DNA of 64,000 nt. Origin: Vulcanimicrobiota bacterium (GTDB lineage Bacteria > Vulcanimicrobiota > Vulcanimicrobiia > Eremiobacterales > Eremiobacteraceae). Numbering within the stretch: position 1 is the stretch's first letter; each line of letters opens with the position of its first letter. The position numbers are program-made. This document shows positions 24,001-33,000 of the stretch, one piece after another. The stretch is from the NCBI GenBank assembly GCA_963812135.1, contig CAWETU010000001.1, forward strand, positions 256,001 to 320,000, written 5' to 3'.

Positions 24001-27000
24001 CCGCGAGCAGTGGCAGCGCGAGCGGCGGCTGGACGAGCGCGTGCCAACCGCGGCGCAGGATCACGGCGACGAACGTCACCAGTGAGGCGATCATCATCAC
24101 GATCAGGAGGACGACCGCATAGATCCGGCCGCCGACCGCGATGCCTCGCGGCACGACGTCGGCGAGCAAGACGAGCATCGGCAGCACCGGCCCGAGTGTG
24201 AAGAAAGCGAACGGGAGCACGAGCTCGGCGCGCCGCCCGAAGGACAACGGGTTGGTCACCCGGTGTTCTGCGACGCTAGCGCGAGCACAGCCTCCGCGAC
24301 CGCGTTCGCGCCGCCCGGTCCTCCCATGCGCGACCTTCCAACCTGACCCATCGCTCGCATCCGATCCGGATCGCGCAACAAGGCGACGAAATCTTCGGCG
24401 AACCGGCGATCATCGTCGGGCAAGACGAGCAGCGCATCTCCAAGGAGCCGCTGCTGACGCATGCGATACCAGCCGACGCTGGCCGGATCACCCATCGGCG
24501 ATGAAGCGACGACCGGCAGCCCCAAGCCGGCTGCTTGTTCGTTCGCGGTGCCCGCTTGGCCGAGCACGATGTCGCAATCGGCCAAGAGATCACCGAATTC
24601 TCCGGCGACCAAAGTCACGTCGAGCGGCCCCGCTTTTCCGCGCGCCACGACACCGGACTCGCTCTCCGTTGGCGCGAGCGTTGCTCCCGCGCTCTCGCAT
24701 GCCGCGACCAGCGCGCCCGCGGCGACGCCCGGCGCAACAGAGATCAACGCCTGGACCGGCCGCGGCGCAAGCAGTCCGGCGACCAGCGCGAGGCGCCGAA
24801 CGGCGGCGGCCGCGTTGTCTGGCGCGTCCGCCCGGCTGCCCGGCAGCACGCCGACGTGGACCGCGCCAGGGATCGCTCCGAGATCCACGCCGTGCGGTGC
24901 GAGGCCGTCCATCATCAAGTTGCCGGCATAGCGCGCCGGCACCCCCGCATCGGCAAGCGCGCGCGCCGTCTCCGCGTCGCGTGCGAACACGACCCGCGCC
25001 CACCGCGCGATCGCTCGCTCGAGCGCCGAGTGCCCGGCCACGTGTTCCGACTTGGCCGTCGCGACGAACACCGTCGGGCGTCGCGCGAAGTAGAGAGACG
25101 CCGCGAGCGCGTACACGTCGCCGACCGCGACGACGACCGTGCGCGCGCGTTGCCGTCGCAAAAACGCGAATTGGCGCAGGGTCAGCGACAGCAGACCCGC
25201 GCGGACGTCGCGCGCAAGGTTGCGCAGGTTCCAGTATGCGATCAATCCGCCGCTCGGCATCTGCGCCTGCGGGCCGACCACACGAGTCGCCGTCGTAGCG
25301 GTCGTAGCGGTCGAATTTATTCGACCGAACTCGCCGACCAGCGGGAAATGCTCGATCGTGGCGTTGGGTGCGCGCGCCGCGATCGCGTCCGCGAGATAGC
25401 CTGCGATGGCGGCTTCGCCGTACCCGTTGCTGACCAACAGAATATTTGGAGCGGTCGAATCTAATCGACCGGGCGTTGGATTCATCCGACCGTTCGTCCG
25501 AGCAACGGCACCAGGCGAAACGACTTCACGCTCGGCCGTTTGCCGTTGCCTAAGTCCAATTCGAGGCTGCCGGCATTTTCCGCGTACGCACCCGCGTGGA
25601 CGATCGGCACGCCCGCGACAATCTCGGGATCGCGCAGCGTGTGGTGGCTATGGCCGCCGATGATCGCGCCGATGCTCGGATACGCGCGCGCAAGCTCGCG
25701 ATCGGCGTCGAGCCCCAAGTGCGAGAGCACGAGCGTGACGTCTATGCCGTCGTCCGGCGTGAGCAGCTCATCCATCGCCGCTTGCACGGATAAGAATCGC
25801 CAGCCGAAGACCGTCTCCCAGCCGCTTCCCGTGCGATATTGCGGCGCGAGCAGCGCGAGCAGGCGAACGCGCGCCCCGCCCGCCTCCACGACGAGCGAGC
25901 GCCGATACGGCGGCGTCCGGTCGCGCAGATCGAGTAGATTCGAGCAGATCATGGGCATGGGCATGGCTTTGGCGCGCGCCTCGAACCAGGCGTGGACATA
26001 GTGGAACTCGCGGTTGCCGACCGCTTGCGCGCGATACGGCGCCGCAGCGAACTCGCTCGTCACGGGCTCGACTCGCCGGTAGAGCGTCGACGAGCCGCTC
26101 AGGCTGTCGCCGCAATCCACGAGCAGCGCCGAGGGTTCGACGAGCGCGGCGAGCTTGCGGCCGAAACCGCGGCGCCCGTGCACGTCGGCGGTGTGGTAGA
26201 CGACGAGCGTGCCGGCGCTCATGCGGGCTGCGCCGTCTCCATCGTCGCGGCGACGAAGCGGGCGATCCGCGCGAGCGAATCCGGCGGCCCGAGCACCGTG
26301 CGCAGGGCCGCATAACCGCGCAGCTGCGATTCGCGCTCGGCGCTGTCGGTGAGCAGCGCAGTCGTGCGTTCGACGAGATGCTCGGGCGTCAAGTCATCCT
26401 GCAGCAATTCGGGGACGACGCTTCGGCCGAGCAACAGATTCGGCAGGGTGAGCGGCCCGCGGACGAACTGCGGCACCCGGCGTTGCGCGATGCGATATTG
26501 TGCGCGACTGATCGCGTAGAAAGCGATTTGCGGCACCGCACGCAGCGCCGTTTCCAACACCGCAGTGCCGGACGCCACCCACGCCAGGTCGGTGGCGAGC
26601 ATGGCATCTTGGATCGCGGCGCCGCGCGCGATGACCGGCCGGCCGGCGCTCATCCGTGGCCAGCATCGCTCGATCTGCCGGGCGCGCGCCTCCGAAGCGC
26701 CGGCGATGACAAACGTCGCGCGCACGCTCGCGGTCAGCATCGACGCCGCTGACGCAAGACGCGGCAGCATGAGGTCGATCTCTTCGCGCCGGCTGCCCGG
26801 GAATATGACGATCCGCGGACCGTCGGCCGGCTCGAGTTCCAACTGTGCCGGCCACTGCGCCGCTCGAGTCACGCGCGGCGCGATCGCCGAGACCAGTGGA
26901 TGGCCGAAAAATTCGCAGCGCAGGCCGAGCCGGTGATAGAAATCGCGCTGGCGCGCAAACGGCGTGAGCGGTATCGCGACGCGCGCGACCTCACGCGCCT

Positions 27001-30000: not shown

Positions 30001-33000
30001 GCTGCACGCGCCGATCTCGACGCGATCGCCGACGACGACGTTGCCGATCTGCGGGATCTTGATCTGCTCCTTGCCCACGCGCACGAAACCGAAACCGTCC
30101 GCGCCGATGACGCAGTTCGCGTGCAGGATGCAGTCGTCGCCGACCACGCAATCGTCCAGCACGCACGCGCGCGGATGGAGCAGCGTGCGCTTGCCGATCG
30201 ACGCATTGCGCCCGACGTACGCGCCCGCCATGATGATCGCGCCGTCGTCCAGCCGAGCGCCCGAGGACACGACCGCTCCCGCGCCGATGAACACGTCCTT
30301 GCCGCGTTCGACGCCGTCGTCGACGACGGCGCTCGGGTGCGTGAACGGTCCGCGCGGCAGCGGCGGCGCGAACGATGCGAGGATCGCGGCCAACGCGGCG
30401 CGCACGTCGCGCGCCAAGACGAGCGATTTGCCGTTCCGGTCGATGCCGGCGGCGGTGTCGGGGACGATGACCGCTGCAGCGCGCGACGCGATCGCTCGGG
30501 CGATCCAGCGATCGTCGACCGCGAAGGTGAGCGTGCCGGGCGCCGCTTCGTCGACCGACGAGACGCGCTCGATCACGAGGCCTTCTTCGCCCGCGACCGT
30601 TGCGCCGGCGATCGCGGCCAAATCGCCGAGGCGGCGCGATGCCGTCACCGTCGAGCGCCTATTTCGGCGTCGGCGACGGCGGCGTGATCTTCAGCGCTTT
30701 TTCGACATCGGTCGTGATATCGTCGCCGCCGTACGCCGTGCCTTCCCGGGTCACGACCATCTGATAGTTCTTCTGCTTGGCGATGTCGGTGACAGCGGCG
30801 CGTACTTCGCCCGTGACCTTCTCGTTCCAGGCCTTCTCTTGCGCCTGGAATTGGGCGAGCTGTTTGCGCTTGTCGGCCGCGCTGATCCGGCTCTGCGAAA
30901 TCGCTTGGTAGTTGGCTTGCAGCTGGTTGAAATAGTTCTGGAACTCCGGCCAGTTCTGTTCGACCTCGGTGACCCGCACGACGGCGATGCGCGAATGGCT
31001 CTGCGCGCAGCCGCCGACGGCGACCGCAGCGACGAGCGCGACGGCGGCGAACGAACAGCGTTTGAGTGTGTGTGTCACGATCAACTCCCAGATGGTGATG
31101 GCGTAGTGGATGAGGGGACTTCCGGTGCGGAGGATGACGACGACGGCACGACCGCAGGCAGCGCGGCGATCGCCTTGACGACTTGGTCGGTGATATCGAT
31201 CGCTTTGCCGGCGCCGCGGACGTTGGTGAACACGACGGCGAGTCCGTCGTTGCGCGCGACGCTGCCGATCTGCGACTGCACCTGATCCACGATCTTGGCG
31301 TAGAGATCGCGGCGCTGCGCCGCCAGCGTCTGCGCCTCGTCGCCGAGCGCGACGTCGTCCTGGAACTGCATGTGCGCGATGGCGCTGTACTTCTGCACGA
31401 GCTGCTTGCGCGTCTGCTGATACGACGTCAGCGCTTTTTGGAATTCGGCGGTGTATTGCGCCTGGTTCTCGTTGTGGATCTTGTCGATCTGCGCGCGCTC
31501 TTTCGGGTTCTTCGCGATGGCGGCATTCGCGTTGGCCACCTGCTGCTGGTATTGCGTGCCGATCCCAGAGAGCTGCGTCCGCAGCTGTTCGTTGGTCTGC
31601 TTCTGGCGCGCCTGCAGCTTATCGTTGGTGTCCTTCATCGACGCGAGCCGCGCCTTGTTGTAGCGCGCAGCGGCGTCGCGCTGCAGCGTGTCCTCATACG
31701 TCTTCAGGTCGGCGTTGTCGCGCGTCTTGAGCTGGTTGATCATCGCCTCTTCGCGCGTCTCGATGTTCGCGAGCTGGCTCTCGACCTGCTGGCGGTCCGT
31801 CGGTGACAGGTTGAGGTTTTCGAGCTGCGCTTTGAGGTTGAGACGCTGGCTCTGGCTCTGTTTGGCCAGACTGATCTGATAGTCGGTCTCTTGCTTCTCG
31901 AGCTGCGCGCGCCGCGCGCCGATCTTCAGACCGACCTCTTGCTGGAGTTGGCGCGCCACTTGCTGCAGATGCTGGTTATCCGCCTGGAACAACTGCTTCT
32001 GGTAGTCGGTGAACGCCTTCATCGCATCGGTTTGGATCTTCTGCGCCTGGACGCCGAGCTGCTGGCCGATCGGCGCCGACCCGCCCGACGCCTGGGCTTG
32101 CAACGCGGCCATGGCCGCAGCTTCGCGCTGGCCGTAGTACGTGCGCCGCGCGTTCATCTGCGTTTGGAACTGCTGGTCTGCGACCGCCAGCTGCGCTTCC
32201 ATATCCGCTTGCGCTTGGCGCTGCACGTCGGTCTGCGGCACCGGCGCGTTTTGCGCCTGGCCGTTGAGCAGCGTGATCTGCGCCTGCAGCGTGTCCAGTT
32301 CGGTATGCAGCGGATGCGCTTCGACGACTTTGTCGAGGTCGACATACCCCGCGCCGCCGCCGCGGCTCCCGAACGGCGACGCGCCGTGCGTGCAGCCCGC
32401 CAACGCGAGCGCGACGCACGCCGCGACCGCGATCGCTCGTATGGAGCGCTCCGTGCGAGCGCTATCGTGTGCCGGCCGAGCCTTGCGAGCTCGGAGATCC
32501 AAGTCCACCAACCGCTACTTGATCAGCGCGAGCACGTCTGACGTCACGTCGGTGCCCCCGTAGACGCGGTCGGCCTGATCCACCACGAGCAGCAGCTTCT
32601 TCTTTTTCGCGACGTCGGAGATGGCTTTTTGGATCTCGTCGTTGAGCGGCTGGATGTCTTTCTTCTGCTCGTCCTTGAGCTGGTTGTTGAACTGCTGGAC
32701 GATCGCAACTTGCTCGGCCTGGCTCTTGCCGGCGAGTTGCTTGTTGAGATCCTGGCCGAGACGCGTCCGCGCGGCCTGGAACGCATCGGCTGCAGCCTTC
32801 GCCTTCGGCAACGCGTCGATCTGCGTCTGATCCACGTAGCCGATCGAGGACGGCGGCGGCGTCTGCACCGGCGGCACGATGACGCCTTGCTGGCCGATCG
32901 TCGTGAGCACGTCCTTGGTGATATCCTGGCCGCCGAAGATCACGATCTGCTTGTCGACCACGATGCTCAGGCTCTTCTGCGCAGCGACGAGCGCGATCGC

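What a model noticed while it worked through the whole genome (the two positions that open the first line are those of the whole stretch)
24256..30648. Truncated Raetz pathway: lipid A genes without LpxK, Kdo transferase or Kdo synthesis, as in cyanobacteria
The envelope cluster holds lpxD (g00274), lpxC (g00273), fabZ, lpxA (g00271), lpxB (g00270), a metallophosphoesterase in the LpxH/LpxG position (g00269) and a second, LpxB-related glycosyltransferase (g00268, NCBIfam 'lipid-A-disaccharide synthase-related protein'), followed by the WaaL-LptC fusion and lptB/lptFG. There is no 4'-kinase LpxK, no Kdo transferase WaaA/KdtA and no KdsA/KdsB anywhere in the genome, and the same holds for the order (LpxK 0 of 32; KdtA 1 of 32 with a full-length match). 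The lipid anchor exported by the Lpt system should therefore be a Kdo-free, 4'-unphosphorylated disaccharide, with g00268 the candidate for adding the first core sugar - the cyanobacterial type of L [...]
Evidence so far: Gene order and family names; envelope family scan of the whole proteome: no LpxK, Glycos_transf_N, KdsB; the only DAHP_synth_1 protein is the AroG-type g02491 with chorismate-mutase neighbour. Six-frame searches of 32 genomes of the order: PF02606 LpxK 0 of 32; PF04413 Glycos_transf_N 7 of 32 at E<=0.001 but only G173 with a full-length match (181 bits; 62% complete, 3% contaminated), G172 24.9 bits, five others below cut-off over ~40 residues. Controls: both families ring in E. 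coli, Caulobacter, Bacteroides and not in Synechococcus elongatus. The 32 genomes include three flagged unpublished by the tool (G128, G159, G166).
(Added by a program. Inside this text positions count along the whole contig: contig position 256,001 is position 1 of the stretch shown here. "Call 12" and the like, gene names such as g00115 and contig names such as C1 are that model's own, and its searches are not shown. The text may have been shortened before it was handed on; [...] marks where a part breaks off. The agent that wrote the report below was given it as the finding of a first reader that could run no searches.)

Follow-up and report, generated by a model that had tools for sequence, protein, structure and literature searches.

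The report
Kdo-free lipid A pathway in Eremiobacterota
This soil bacterium makes the lipid anchor of its outer membrane by a shortened version of the textbook pathway, a pattern already known from cyanobacteria, and the gene cluster holds a likely stand-in for one enzyme that seemed to be missing.

Summary
On the minus strand, 24256-30648 reads lpxD-lpxC-fabZ-lpxA-lpxB, a 246-aa metallophosphoesterase (g00269) and a TIGR03492 glycosyltransferase (g00268). A WaaL-LptC fusion, lptB and lptF/G follow, and most neighbouring genes overlap by 4 nt.

The genome (Vulcanimicrobiota/Eremiobacterota, 98.4% complete) has no LpxK, WaaA, KdsA, KdsB, LpxL, LpxH or LpxI. In a 101-genome sample of the phylum no convincing LpxK, WaaA, KdsA or KdsB was found. 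The single full-length KdtA in the order lies on a contig that looks mis-binned.

This is the "four-enzyme" Raetz pathway already described for Cyanobacteria and Dictyoglomi (Opiyo 2010), so it is a known kind in a new phylum.

- **g00269** is a cytoplasmic, N-domain-only UshA/5'-nucleotidase relative. Its catalytic His is replaced by Arg (GNRE), the substitution reported as unique to LpxH. It is the best candidate for the missing UDP-diacylglucosamine hydrolase.
- **A second LpxB-like paralogue, "GT-X"**, was found in 99 of 101 genomes. It is fused to LpxB in one lineage and here is coupled to ADP-heptose genes. It is at least as good a candidate for the first core sugar as g00268.
- **A heptose/GT9 core cluster** is present, so the LPS is not simply the cyanobacterial type.

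The parts
29608..30648 (-). lpxD, UDP-3-O-acylglucosamine N-acyltransferase
   Evidence: NF002060 331.8 bits (cut-off 207), TIGR01853 317.5 bits; Pfam LpxD plus Hexapep
28756..29592 (-). lpxC, UDP-3-O-acyl-GlcNAc deacetylase
   Evidence: Pfam LpxC 307.9 bits; TIGR00325 244.7 bits (cut-off 187)
28273..28746 (-). fabZ, 3-hydroxyacyl-ACP dehydratase
   Evidence: TIGR01750 185.1 bits (cut-off 155)
27405..28265 (-). lpxA, UDP-GlcNAc O-acyltransferase
   Evidence: NF003657 338 bits (cut-off 226)
26219..27388 (-). lpxB, lipid A disaccharide synthase; the only true LpxB in the genome
   Evidence: Pfam LpxB 182.7 bits, positions 1-348 of 374. It is the only PF02684 match over the cut-off in the genome.
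25482..26222 (-). g00269: 246-aa cytoplasmic metallophosphoesterase, the N-terminal domain alone of the UshA/5'-nucleotidase type with a GNRE motif. Candidate UDP-2,3-diacylglucosamine pyrophosphatase (the LpxH-type step).
   Evidence: Motifs D13/H15, D39, N70-R71-E72, H168, H191/H193. AlphaFold2 model pLDDT 96. Z about 26 to 5'-nucleotidase/UshA N-domains. R71 is 97% conserved in 76 stand-alone relatives, against GNH in 35 of 38 long relatives. It lies between lpxB and the TIGR03492 gene in the 80 related loci wherever the contig reaches. Its start overlaps the lpxB stop by 4 nt.
24256..25485 (-). g00268: TIGR03492 'lipid-A-disaccharide synthase-related' GT-B glycosyltransferase. Candidate glycosyltransferase acting on the lipid A disaccharide.
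   Evidence: TIGR03492 232.8 bits (cut-off 219.2). No Pfam LpxB or Glycos_transf_N match. AlphaFold2 model pLDDT 90.9, GT-B fold, Z 22-25 to UDP-GlcNAc 2-epimerases, MGD1 and MurG. The family was found in 101 of 101 phylum genomes.
22397..24259 (-). WaaL (O-antigen ligase domain) fused to LptC
   Evidence: Pfam Wzy_C residues 207-337 (58.5 bits) and LptC residues 490-606 (44.7 bits); TIGR04409 LptC 50.1 bits (cut-off 38)
21636..22439 (-). lptB, LPS export ATPase
   Evidence: TIGR04406 327.6 bits (cut-off 240)
20554..21639 (-). lptF/G-type LPS export permease
   Evidence: Pfam LptF_LptG 257.3 bits; TIGR04408 206 bits, below its cut-off of 240
19612..20547 (-). DUF3084 protein, last gene of the conserved block
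   Evidence: Pfam DUF3084 86.1 bits. Syntenic in most of the 80 related loci.
30659..33309 (-). Three OmpH/Skp-like chaperone genes (30659-31084, 31081-32511, 32515-33309) upstream of lpxD
   Evidence: Pfam OmpH 36.6, 31.1 and 69.1 bits
33325..39319 (-). bamA (33325-35613) and a tamB-like gene (35744-39319) heading the envelope block
   Evidence: POTRA plus Omp85; TIGR03303 276 bits, below its cut-off of 297; Pfam TamB 95.2 bits

Best explanation
This is the lipid A and LPS-export operon of a Vulcanimicrobiota (Eremiobacterota) bacterium. It runs a shortened Raetz pathway.

**Shown by family matches.** LpxA, LpxC and LpxD make UDP-2,3-diacylglucosamine. LpxB joins two units into the tetra-acyl disaccharide 1-phosphate.

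**Inferred, about 0.6.** The lipid X that LpxB needs is made by g00269. This is a cytoplasmic enzyme consisting of the catalytic domain alone of the UshA (UDP-sugar hydrolase/5'-nucleotidase) family. Its catalytic His has become Arg, as in LpxH, where that Arg holds the sugar-1-phosphate of the substrate.

**Inferred from absence, about 0.85.** There is no 4'-kinase, no Kdo synthesis, no Kdo transferase and no LpxL/M. The anchor is therefore Kdo-free and not phosphorylated at 4' by any known enzyme.

**Inferred, about 0.4 for each assignment.** The disaccharide is extended on the cytoplasmic side by LpxB-derived GT-B enzymes. One is g00268 (TIGR03492), in the operon. The other is its paralogue GT-X, outside the window at G000:C1:363244-364488. 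In this genome GT-X is co-transcribed with ADP-heptose synthesis genes and followed by GT2 and GT9 transferases. One of the two starts the core. The other may decorate another hydroxyl.

**Later steps.** Flipping was not examined beyond finding two MsbA-like ABC exporters. O-antigen ligation and hand-over are done by the WaaL-LptC fusion, and export by LptB/LptFG.
For: **Gene identities and coupling.**. There are 4-nt overlaps at lpxB/g00269, g00269/g00268, g00268/waaL-lptC and lptB/lptFG.

**Absences in a genome that is 98.43% complete.** LpxK, WaaA, KdsA, KdsB, LpxL, LpxH and LpxI. In each of these family searches the control genomes that should hold the gene did match.

**Phylum sample of 101 genomes, 77 of high quality.**
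- LpxK: 3 of 101 at E<=1e-3. The only one at the cut-off is a 448-aa P-loop protein that scores equally for cobW.
- KdtA: 0 of 101 over the cut-off.
- KdsA: 0 of 101.
- KdsB: 0 of 101 over the cut-off.
- LpxH: 0 of 101.
- LpxI: 0 of 101.
- TIGR03492: 101 of 101.
- g00269 profile: 101 of 101 at E<=1e-30.
- GT-X: 99 of 101.

**Synteny.** The order lpxB, g00269, TIGR03492 holds in the 80 related loci as far as the contigs reach.

**g00269.**
- All metal ligands are kept, and Arg is 97% conserved at the GNH position among 76 stand-alone relatives. Among 38 long 5'-nucleotidase relatives, 35 have GNH.
- E. coli LpxH reads HGNRDF.
- Okada 2016 states that this His-to-Arg change occurs only in LpxH, and that the Arg forms a salt bridge to the 1-phosphate of lipid X (passages).
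- The fold matches UshA, an enzyme that cleaves UDP-sugars into UMP and sugar-1-phosphate, at Z about 26.
- There is no room for a signal peptide, because strand 1 with the DxH motif starts at residue 5.

**GT-X.**
- It is homologous to TIGR03492 over its full length (hhalign 98.1%, E 8e-14, 354 columns).
- It is fused to a bona fide LpxB in G019 (TIGR00215 254.9 bits at residues 15-385, plus GT-X).
- It lies in ORFs of 807-857 aa in 12 of 101 genomes.
- Its start overlaps the rfaE-II stop.

**From the literature.** The cultured relative Vulcanimicrobium alpinus is diderm and rich in 3-hydroxy fatty acids, with iso-C14:0-3OH at 16.5% and iso-C13:0-3OH at 11.0% (passage). The same four-enzyme cluster in the order lpxD-lpxC-fabZ-lpxA-lpxB is described for Cyanobacteria and Dictyoglomi (Opiyo 2010, passages).
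Against: - No chemistry exists for any member of the phylum. [quoted passage not shown]
- Absence of a family does not exclude a non-orthologous kinase or transferase.
- g00269 does not match the LpxH model TIGR01854. It lacks the C-terminal domain that binds the nucleotide in UshA. LpxH did not appear among the listed structural matches.
- g00269 stays next to the TIGR03492 gene even where lpxB lies on the other strand (G019). It could therefore serve that glycosyltransferase rather than LpxB.
- In 12 of 101 genomes the g00269 profile's best match was a weaker, long-type paralogue. Only one of these, G019, was checked and found to hold a short GNRE copy.
- TIGR03492 matches in the Deinococcus radiodurans control, where Pfam LpxB does not. 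The family is therefore not strictly tied to lipid A.
- The rfaE-I, rfaE-II and gmhA matches are full length but below their equivalog cut-offs (339 against 345, 165 against 181.5 and 164 against 209 bits).
- I could not test whether g00269 relatives occur in cyanobacteria.
Confidence: 0.7

Rival explanations
1. g00268 (TIGR03492) alone adds the first core sugar to the 6'-OH of the disaccharide, and the product is the heptose-free, Kdo-free, phosphate-poor LPS of cyanobacteria.
For: g00268 sits directly after lpxB and g00269 and before waaL-lptC, with overlapping stop and start codons. The family was found in 101 of 101 phylum genomes. It matches in Synechococcus elongatus, which lacks WaaA and LpxK matches.
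Against: A paralogue, GT-X, is almost as universal (99 of 101) and is physically fused to LpxB in G019. GT-X is the protein behind the faint Glycos_transf_N hits, with hhalign 91.5% over 87 columns to a KdtA, while g00268 gives 2%. This genome has heptose genes and three GT9 genes. TIGR03492 also matches in Deinococcus, where Pfam LpxB does not.
Confidence: 0.3
2. g00269 is not the LpxH-type hydrolase. It works with the TIGR03492 enzyme, for instance by removing the 1-phosphate of the lipid A precursor or by hydrolysing another nucleotide-sugar. An unrecognised protein makes lipid X.
For: g00269 and the TIGR03492 gene stay adjacent in G019 even though lpxB there lies on the opposite strand about 2 kb away. 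g00269 gives no match to TIGR01854. Cyanobacterial lipid A is described as phosphate-free (passage), which would require a phosphatase somewhere.
Against: LpxB needs lipid X, and LpxH and LpxI were found in 0 of 101 genomes. The His-to-Arg change is the one LpxH uses to bind a sugar-1-phosphate leaving group. Its family's model enzyme UshA performs exactly the UDP-sugar to UMP plus sugar-1-P reaction, as the NCBIfam name NF007109 indicates.
Confidence: 0.25
3. The pathway is complete after all. Highly divergent or non-orthologous versions of LpxK and a Kdo-type transferase exist and were missed.
For: Profile searches cannot see non-orthologous replacements. JGI labels 9 of the 120 listed g00268 homologues 'tetraacyldisaccharide 4'-kinase'. 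One P-loop protein in G015 scores 28.8 bits for LpxK.
Against: Kdo cannot be made without KdsA and KdsB. KdsA matched 0 of 101 genomes, and KdsB matched none over the cut-off. g00268 has a GT-B glycosyltransferase fold, not a P-loop kinase fold. The G015 protein covers only model positions 31-232 of LpxK and scores the same for cobW. Nothing comparable was found in the own order, 0 of 32.
Confidence: 0.07
4. The absences are artefacts of incomplete metagenome-assembled genomes.
For: Many genomes in the samples are draft MAGs. The single KdtA hit is in a bin that is 62% complete.
Against: The own genome is 98.43% complete in 6 contigs. Of the 101 genomes in the sample, 77 are at least 90% complete. 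Several are single-contig assemblies, such as G011, G036, G045 and G097. The KdtA contig differs by 13 GC points from the lpx contig of the same bin.
Confidence: 0.02

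Closest known systems
Four-enzyme lipid A pathway of Cyanobacteria and Dictyoglomi (Opiyo et al. 2010, BMC Evol Biol 10:362; passages read)
   Same: Only lpxA, lpxC, lpxD and lpxB of the nine Raetz genes are present. The cluster order lpxD-lpxC-fabZ-lpxA-lpxB is identical. There is no LpxH, LpxK, WaaA or LpxL/M.
   Different: It occurs in another phylum (Vulcanimicrobiota). The cluster continues with a conserved metallophosphoesterase, a TIGR03492 glycosyltransferase, WaaL-LptC and lptB/FG. The genome also has an ADP-heptose and GT9 cluster, whereas cyanobacterial LPS is described as heptose-free. The S. elongatus control has KdsA and KdsB matches, and this phylum does not.
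LpxH, UDP-2,3-diacylglucosamine pyrophosphatase (E. coli b0524; P. aeruginosa structure, Okada 2016)
   Same: Similar size (246 against 240 aa) and cytoplasmic location. It is a calcineurin-like dinuclear metal site in which the GNH His is replaced by Arg: GNRE here, GNRD in E. coli. It lies next to lpxB.
   Different: No match to TIGR01854. Sequence and fold place it in the UshA/5'-nucleotidase branch. Whether it has a lipid-binding lid like LpxH's was not tested.
UshA / 5'-nucleotidase family (E. coli 1ush, T. thermophilus 2z1a, B. subtilis YunD 9a7h)
   Same: The catalytic N-domain fold matches at Z 25.6-26.8, rmsd 2.5-3.1 A over 230-240 residues. The metal ligands are the same. UshA's reaction on UDP-sugars is the chemistry required here.
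   Different: It has no C-terminal nucleotide-binding domain and no signal peptide. The catalytic His is replaced by Arg in 97% of the stand-alone family.
LpxB (GT19) lipid A disaccharide synthase
   Same: g00268 and GT-X are GT-B enzymes that NCBIfam names as LpxB-related. They share the PGSR stretch with LpxB and align collinearly with it. GT-X is fused to LpxB in G019.
   Different: g00268 gives no Pfam LpxB or TIGR00215 match. hhalign against the window's single LpxB sequence is weak (E 0.055). The true LpxB is the neighbouring gene.
WaaA/KdtA (GT30) Kdo transferase
   Same: It has the functional position proposed here: the first glycosylation of the lipid A disaccharide on the cytoplasmic face.
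   Different: No PF04413 match over the cut-off. There is no CMP-Kdo supply. GT-X shows only an 87-column local resemblance. g00268 shows none.
LpxG (Chlamydia) and LpxI (Alphaproteobacteria), the other two UDP-diacylglucosamine hydrolase classes
   Same: They perform the same proposed step. LpxG is also a calcineurin-like phosphoesterase.
   Different: LpxG keeps GNHD and has an N-terminal transmembrane helix (passages). g00269 has GNRE and no such helix. LpxI_C is absent.

Membership tests
Four-enzyme (truncated) Raetz pathway, as in Cyanobacteria and Dictyoglomi | lpxA, lpxC, lpxD and lpxB present | tested here: met
   All four match their families, with lpxB by Pfam at 182.7 bits.
Four-enzyme (truncated) Raetz pathway, as in Cyanobacteria and Dictyoglomi | Cluster order lpxD-lpxC-fabZ-lpxA-lpxB | tested here: met
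   The order is as given by Opiyo 2010.
Four-enzyme (truncated) Raetz pathway, as in Cyanobacteria and Dictyoglomi | No LpxH, LpxK, WaaA or LpxL/M | tested here: met
   Own genome. Phylum sample of 101.
Four-enzyme (truncated) Raetz pathway, as in Cyanobacteria and Dictyoglomi | LPS without Kdo (gene level: no KdsA or KdsB) | tested here: met
Four-enzyme (truncated) Raetz pathway, as in Cyanobacteria and Dictyoglomi | LPS without heptose (gene level: no ADP-heptose pathway or heptosyltransferases) | tested here: not met
   A cluster of gmhA, rfaE-I, rfaE-II and three GT9 genes lies at G000:C1:360.5-370.3 kb. The matches are full length but below their equivalog cut-offs.
Four-enzyme (truncated) Raetz pathway, as in Cyanobacteria and Dictyoglomi | Chemically phosphate-poor, Kdo-free lipid A | not testable with these tools
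   No LPS chemistry for the phylum was found in the paper on the isolate or in its held supplements.
LpxH (for g00269) | Match to the LpxH family model TIGR01854 | tested here: not met
   TIGR01854 is not among the hits. There is no match in the genome.
LpxH (for g00269) | Dinuclear metallophosphoesterase site with Arg in place of the GNH histidine | tested here: met
   GNRE at residues 69-72. Conserved in 97% of 76 relatives. The LpxH feature is described.
LpxH (for g00269) | Hydrolyses UDP-2,3-diacylglucosamine to lipid X and UMP | not testable with these tools
   Needs complementation or an enzyme assay.
UshA/5'-nucleotidase family (for g00269) | N-terminal metallophosphatase domain fold | tested here: met
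   Z 25.6-26.8. phmmer E 5e-11 to 2z1a.
UshA/5'-nucleotidase family (for g00269) | C-terminal substrate-binding domain | tested here: not met
   The protein has only 246 aa, and the alignments end at the N-domain.
LpxG (for g00269) | GNHD motif and N-terminal transmembrane helix (Young 2016) | tested here: not met
   It has GNRE, and the first strand starts at residue 5.
TIGR03492 LpxB-related protein (for g00268) | Score over the curated cut-off across the full model | tested here: met
   232.8 bits against 219.2, covering model positions 1-393 of 396.
LpxB / GT19 proper (for g00268) | Match to PF02684 or TIGR00215 | tested here: not met
   No match. hhalign E 0.055.
WaaA / GT30 (for g00268 and GT-X) | Match to PF04413 over the cut-off | tested here: not met
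   g00268 gives none. GT-X gives 15.3-16.6 bits over about 40 residues.
LpxK | Match to PF02606 anywhere in the genome | tested here: not met
   Best 12.4 bits. tblastn with E. coli LpxK gives nothing.

The most novel reading that the evidence does not exclude
The g00269 family is a fourth, independently evolved class of UDP-2,3-diacylglucosamine pyrophosphatase. It would be a UshA catalytic domain that moved into the cytoplasm, lost its nucleotide-binding domain and converged on LpxH's His-to-Arg solution. On this reading, Vulcanimicrobiota (and probably Armatimonadota) build an LPS in which LpxB-derived glycosyltransferases (TIGR03492 and GT-X) replace both LpxK and WaaA, with a core, possibly heptose, attached directly to the lipid A disaccharide without Kdo.
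Probability: 0.35. Interest if true: 0.75.

Novelty: new variant of a known kind. Interest (0 to 1): 0.55.

Why it matters
Kdo2-lipid A is usually presented as the minimal, near-universal LPS core. The exceptions, cyanobacteria and Dictyoglomi, have been read as a primordial form, but the enzymes that fill their gaps are not identified in the papers I read. These gaps are the hydrolase that makes lipid X and the transferase that starts a Kdo-free core.

This phylum offers a compact and universally conserved gene set for both steps. For the hydrolase there is also a sequence signature, His to Arg, that ties it to a solved mechanism. Because a member of the phylum (Vulcanimicrobium alpinus) is in culture, and E. 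coli lpxH complementation is an established assay, the proposals can be tested directly.

The result also adds a data point on outer-membrane evolution in Terrabacteria.

Tried and rejected
- **Context outside the phylum.** The 11-sequence alignment returned 80 loci, all from Vulcanimicrobiota, some under wrong bin names. I therefore have no genomic context for g00269 relatives in other phyla.
- **Organism names.** The listing of cluster members gave no organism names for 10 distant relatives. Only Armatimonadota and Vulcanimicrobiota names appeared among 120 profile hits and in the Atlas rows. Cyanobacterial genomes could be reached only as the built-in controls.
- **Structure searches.** LpxB, WaaA and LpxH were not among the rows listed for the two models. 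This is inconclusive, not evidence against a relationship.
- **LptD.** Pfam LptD found nothing in the own genome. Its controls match only in E. coli and Caulobacter, so the test is weak. LptA/LptC-like ORFs and a second lptF/G do exist.
- **Literature.** No paper holds 'TIGR03492'. The V. alpinus paper and its 6 held supplements contain no lpx, lipid A, Kdo or heptose terms. Searches combining Eremiobacterota with LPS or Terrabacteria terms found no envelope survey of the phylum. Surveys in subscription journals, or supplements not held, may tabulate this.
- **Earlier findings of this scan.** Nothing relevant was found.
- **JGI's '4'-kinase' label.** I considered that this label on g00268 homologues might mark a hidden LpxK. 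I rejected it because the protein has a GT-B fold.
- **MAG incompleteness.** Considered as an explanation for the absences and rejected (see rival explanations).

Full report
**What is there.** The window is G000:C1:256001-320000 of a 2.79-Mb genome in 6 contigs, 98.43% complete and 0.92% contaminated. Homologues of its proteins carry Eremiobacterota/Vulcanimicrobiota names.

On the minus strand a long envelope block reads: tamB-like, bamA, three OmpH/Skp-like genes, lpxD, lpxC, fabZ, lpxA, lpxB, a 246-aa metallophosphoesterase (g00269), a TIGR03492 'lipid-A-disaccharide synthase-related' protein (g00268), a WaaL(Wzy_C)-LptC fusion, lptB, one lptF/G and a DUF3084 gene. The coordinates given in the finding (24256-30648) run exactly from g00268 to lpxD. 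From lpxB onward most neighbours overlap by 4 nt, so they are very probably translated as one unit.

**The absences, own genome.** Six-frame profile searches of the own genome gave the following.
- LpxK: best 12.4 bits, in a ParA-like P-loop ORF. That label is mine, from its KGGVGKTT motif.
- Glycos_transf_N: best 16.6 bits.
- DAHP_synth_1: a single protein, which is a DAHP synthase (NF006421 492 bits against a cut-off of 335; KDO8P synthase 116 against 314).
- CTP_transf_3: the best hits are IspD (TIGR00453 229 bits), GlmU (504 bits) and a mannose-1-P guanylyltransferase-like protein.
- Lip_A_acyltrans: none.
- LpxH: none.
- LpxI_C: none.
- tblastn with E. coli LpxK, KdsB and LpxH: nothing at E<=1e-3.

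The built-in controls matched where they should. For LpxK, WaaA and LpxL these were E. coli, Caulobacter and Bacteroides.

**The absences, order level.** PF04413 matched 7 of 32 genomes at E<=0.001, with one full-length match of 181.5 bits (G115) and one of 24.9 bits. PF02606 matched 0 of 32.

**The absences, phylum level.** The sample was 101 genomes including G000, drawn evenly, 77 of them at least 90% complete and at most 5% contaminated.
- LpxK: 3 of 101 at E<=1e-3. The only one near the cut-off is a 448-aa P-loop protein that scores 28.8 bits for LpxK over model positions 31-232 and 29 bits for cobW.
- KdtA: 2 of 101 at E<=1e-3, none over the cut-off.
- KdsA: 0 of 101 at E<=1e-40.
- KdsB: 2 of 101 at E<=1e-10, none over the cut-off. 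One genome, G035, comes close at 149.4 against 155.2 bits.

**The one KdtA in the order.** It lies on G115:C3. The 13.4 kb around it have 54.8% GC. The G115 contig that carries that bin's own TIGR03492 gene (59% identical to g00268) has 67.7% GC. Only 3 of the 13 ORFs around the KdtA find anything in G000 at E<=1e-5, at 30-37% identity. I read this contig as mis-binned, on the basis of that one stretch. Two of the weak PF04413 hits that I checked, in G000 and G067, fall inside GT-X (described below). The other weak hits were not checked.

**How this compares with what is known.** Opiyo et al. 2010 (passages read) describe this situation for Cyanobacteria and Dictyoglomi. [quoted passage not shown] A 2015 review (passage) says cyanobacterial LPS lacks Kdo and heptose and that its lipid A lacks phosphate. 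The core of the finding is therefore a known kind, now seen in another phylum.

I found no paper treating the lipid A genes of Eremiobacterota. The description of the isolate Vulcanimicrobium alpinus shows a diderm envelope and abundant 3-hydroxy fatty acids, but has no lpx or Kdo terms in the text or in the held supplements. Surveys that I cannot read may tabulate it.

**The metallophosphoesterase g00269.** LpxB needs lipid X, so some enzyme must cleave UDP-2,3-diacylglucosamine. LpxH and LpxI were found in 0 of 101 genomes.
- *Family.* By sequence and fold g00269 is the catalytic N-domain of the UshA/5'-nucleotidase family. phmmer gives E 5e-11 to 2z1a. The AlphaFold2 model has pLDDT 96. The model matches 5'-nucleotidases and E. 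coli UshA at Z 25.6-26.8, rmsd 2.5-3.1 A over about 235 residues.
- *What it lacks.* It has no C-terminal domain. It has no room for a signal peptide, because the first strand with the DxH motif starts at residue 5.
- *The Arg substitution.* All metal ligands are kept, but the GNH(E/D) histidine is Arg (GNRE). Among 76 stand-alone relatives of 225-275 aa, this Arg is 97% conserved. Among 38 long relatives of 440-700 aa, 35 have GNH. It is invariant in the 52 relatives of alignment A3, which leaves out g00269 and its two closest relatives.
- *The link to LpxH.* E. coli LpxH reads HGNRDF. Okada et al. [quoted passage not shown] LpxG keeps GNHD and has a transmembrane helix (passages).
- *Conservation.* In the 80 related loci the order is lpxB, g00269, TIGR03492 wherever the contig reaches. 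All of those loci are from the same phylum and were selected through g00269 itself. The family profile matched 101 of 101 genomes at E<=1e-30. In 12 of them (all 10 of genus g21, plus G026 and G066) the best match was a weaker, long-type paralogue.
- *The one g21 genome inspected.* G019 does hold a 281-aa short copy with GNREFN next to its TIGR03492 gene.
- *Relatives outside the phylum.* Named relatives are from Armatimonadota.

I put the LpxH-type role at about 0.6. The main alternative is that g00269 serves the neighbouring glycosyltransferase, because the two stay adjacent in G019 although lpxB there is on the other strand.

**The glycosyltransferases.** g00268 meets the TIGR03492 cut-off (232.8 against 219.2 bits) but matches no Pfam LpxB or Kdo-transferase model. 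Its model (pLDDT 90.9) has a GT-B fold. The nearest structures are UDP-GlcNAc 2-epimerases (Z about 25), the lipid-acting MGD1 (Z 22.8) and MurG (Z 22.4). The family matched in 101 of 101 phylum genomes, 70 of them over the cut-off. Among the controls it matched in S. elongatus, D. radiodurans and B. thetaiotaomicron, two of them over the cut-off, though the output does not say which two. Pfam LpxB does not match in Deinococcus, so TIGR03492 is not strictly tied to lipid A.

The genome holds a further LpxB-like protein, which I call GT-X (G000:C1:363244-364488, outside the window).
- It is the source of the faint Glycos_transf_N signal.
- It is homologous to TIGR03492 over its full length (hhalign 98.1%, E 8e-14, 354 columns).
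- It was found in 99 of 101 genomes.
- In 12 of 101 genomes it lies in ORFs of 807-857 aa. In G019 that ORF is a fusion of a bona fide LpxB (TIGR00215 254.9 bits, residues 15-385) with GT-X. Only G019 was inspected.
- In G000 its start overlaps the stop of rfaE domain II.

A fusion with LpxB is direct evidence that GT-X works on the lipid A pathway. GT-X is therefore at least as good a candidate for the first glycosylation as g00268. I cannot say which of the two acts at 6', or what the other does.

**The heptose cluster.** Between hisS and aspS (G000:C1:360.5-370.3 kb; L102) lie gmhA, rfaE-I, rfaE-II, GT-X, GT2, GT9, GT9, GT2, GT9 and GT2. The gmhA, rfaE-I and rfaE-II matches are full length but just below their equivalog cut-offs (164 against 209, 339 against 345 and 165 against 181.5 bits). 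This looks like a core-oligosaccharide cluster. If it feeds LPS, the molecule contains heptose but no Kdo, which differs from the cyanobacterial description. The S. elongatus control also matches for GT9, KdsA and KdsB, so 'the cyanobacterial type' is not uniform either.

**Export.** In addition to the operon's lptB, lptF/G and WaaL-LptC, the genome has two LptA/LptC-like ORFs at C1:398.8-400.6 kb and a second lptF/G at about C1:469.4-470.5 kb. It also has two MsbA-like ABC exporters, 34% identical to E. coli MsbA over about 570 residues. Pfam LptD found nothing, but its controls are weak.

**Verdict.** The truncated pathway is real and holds across the phylum sample, but it is a known kind. 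The value added here is:
- a specific, testable candidate for the missing hydrolase;
- two LpxB-derived transferases in place of LpxK and WaaA;
- a heptose cluster;
- the removal of the single contrary KdtA as probable contamination.

Noticed in passing
G000:C1:360500-370300 (L102:5528-15325), about 40 kb beyond the window's end: A core-oligosaccharide-like cluster between hisS and aspS: gmhA, rfaE-I kinase, rfaE-II adenylyltransferase, a third LpxB-like GT-B (GT-X), GT2, GT9, GT9, GT2, GT9, GT2. It implies a heptose-containing glycan in a genome without Kdo.
   Followed up: partly
L133:7359-9806 (G019:C7:233359-235806): An 815-aa fusion of LpxB (TIGR00215 254.9 bits) with the GT-X domain. GT-X lies in ORFs of 807-857 aa in 12 of 101 phylum genomes. 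Only G019 was inspected.
   Followed up: partly
L133:5548-6486 and L133:9808-10461 (G019, a 46% GC lineage of the phylum): A UDP-GlcNAc 3-dehydrogenase-like gene (273.9 bits, below its cut-off of 450) lies between fabZ and lpxA. A weak LmtA-like (lipid A 1-phosphate O-methyltransferase) match of 41.6 bits lies after the LpxB-GT-X fusion. These hint at a diamino-sugar backbone and a methylated 1-phosphate in that lineage.
   Followed up: no
L110 (G115:C3:394001-407423): The only full-length KdtA in the order lies on a 407-kb contig with 55% GC. Its neighbours include a serine-palmitoyltransferase-like aminotransferase and fatty-acid desaturase/hydroxylase-like membrane proteins (my reading of the translations). 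The contig is probably mis-binned.
   Followed up: partly
homologues of window:24256-25485: JGI names 9 of the 120 listed TIGR03492 homologues 'tetraacyldisaccharide 4'-kinase'. This looks like an annotation error, because the protein has a GT-B glycosyltransferase fold.
   Followed up: partly
control genomes of the genome search: Synechococcus elongatus matches over the cut-off for KdsA, KdsB and GT9, although it lacks LpxK and WaaA matches. Deinococcus radiodurans matches for TIGR03492 although Pfam LpxB does not match there.
   Followed up: no
window 30659-33309: Three consecutive OmpH/Skp-like genes lie between bamA and lpxD. The middle one is 476 aa with a long N-terminal extension that has no family match.
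   Followed up: no
G000:C1:467277-469424 (L109:1-2148, minus strand): An ORF of at least 716 aa lies directly downstream of a second lptF/G gene. It has no Pfam family at E<=0.001 and only a 19.2-bit LptD_N hint. It is a possible divergent LptD-like outer-membrane component.
   Followed up: no
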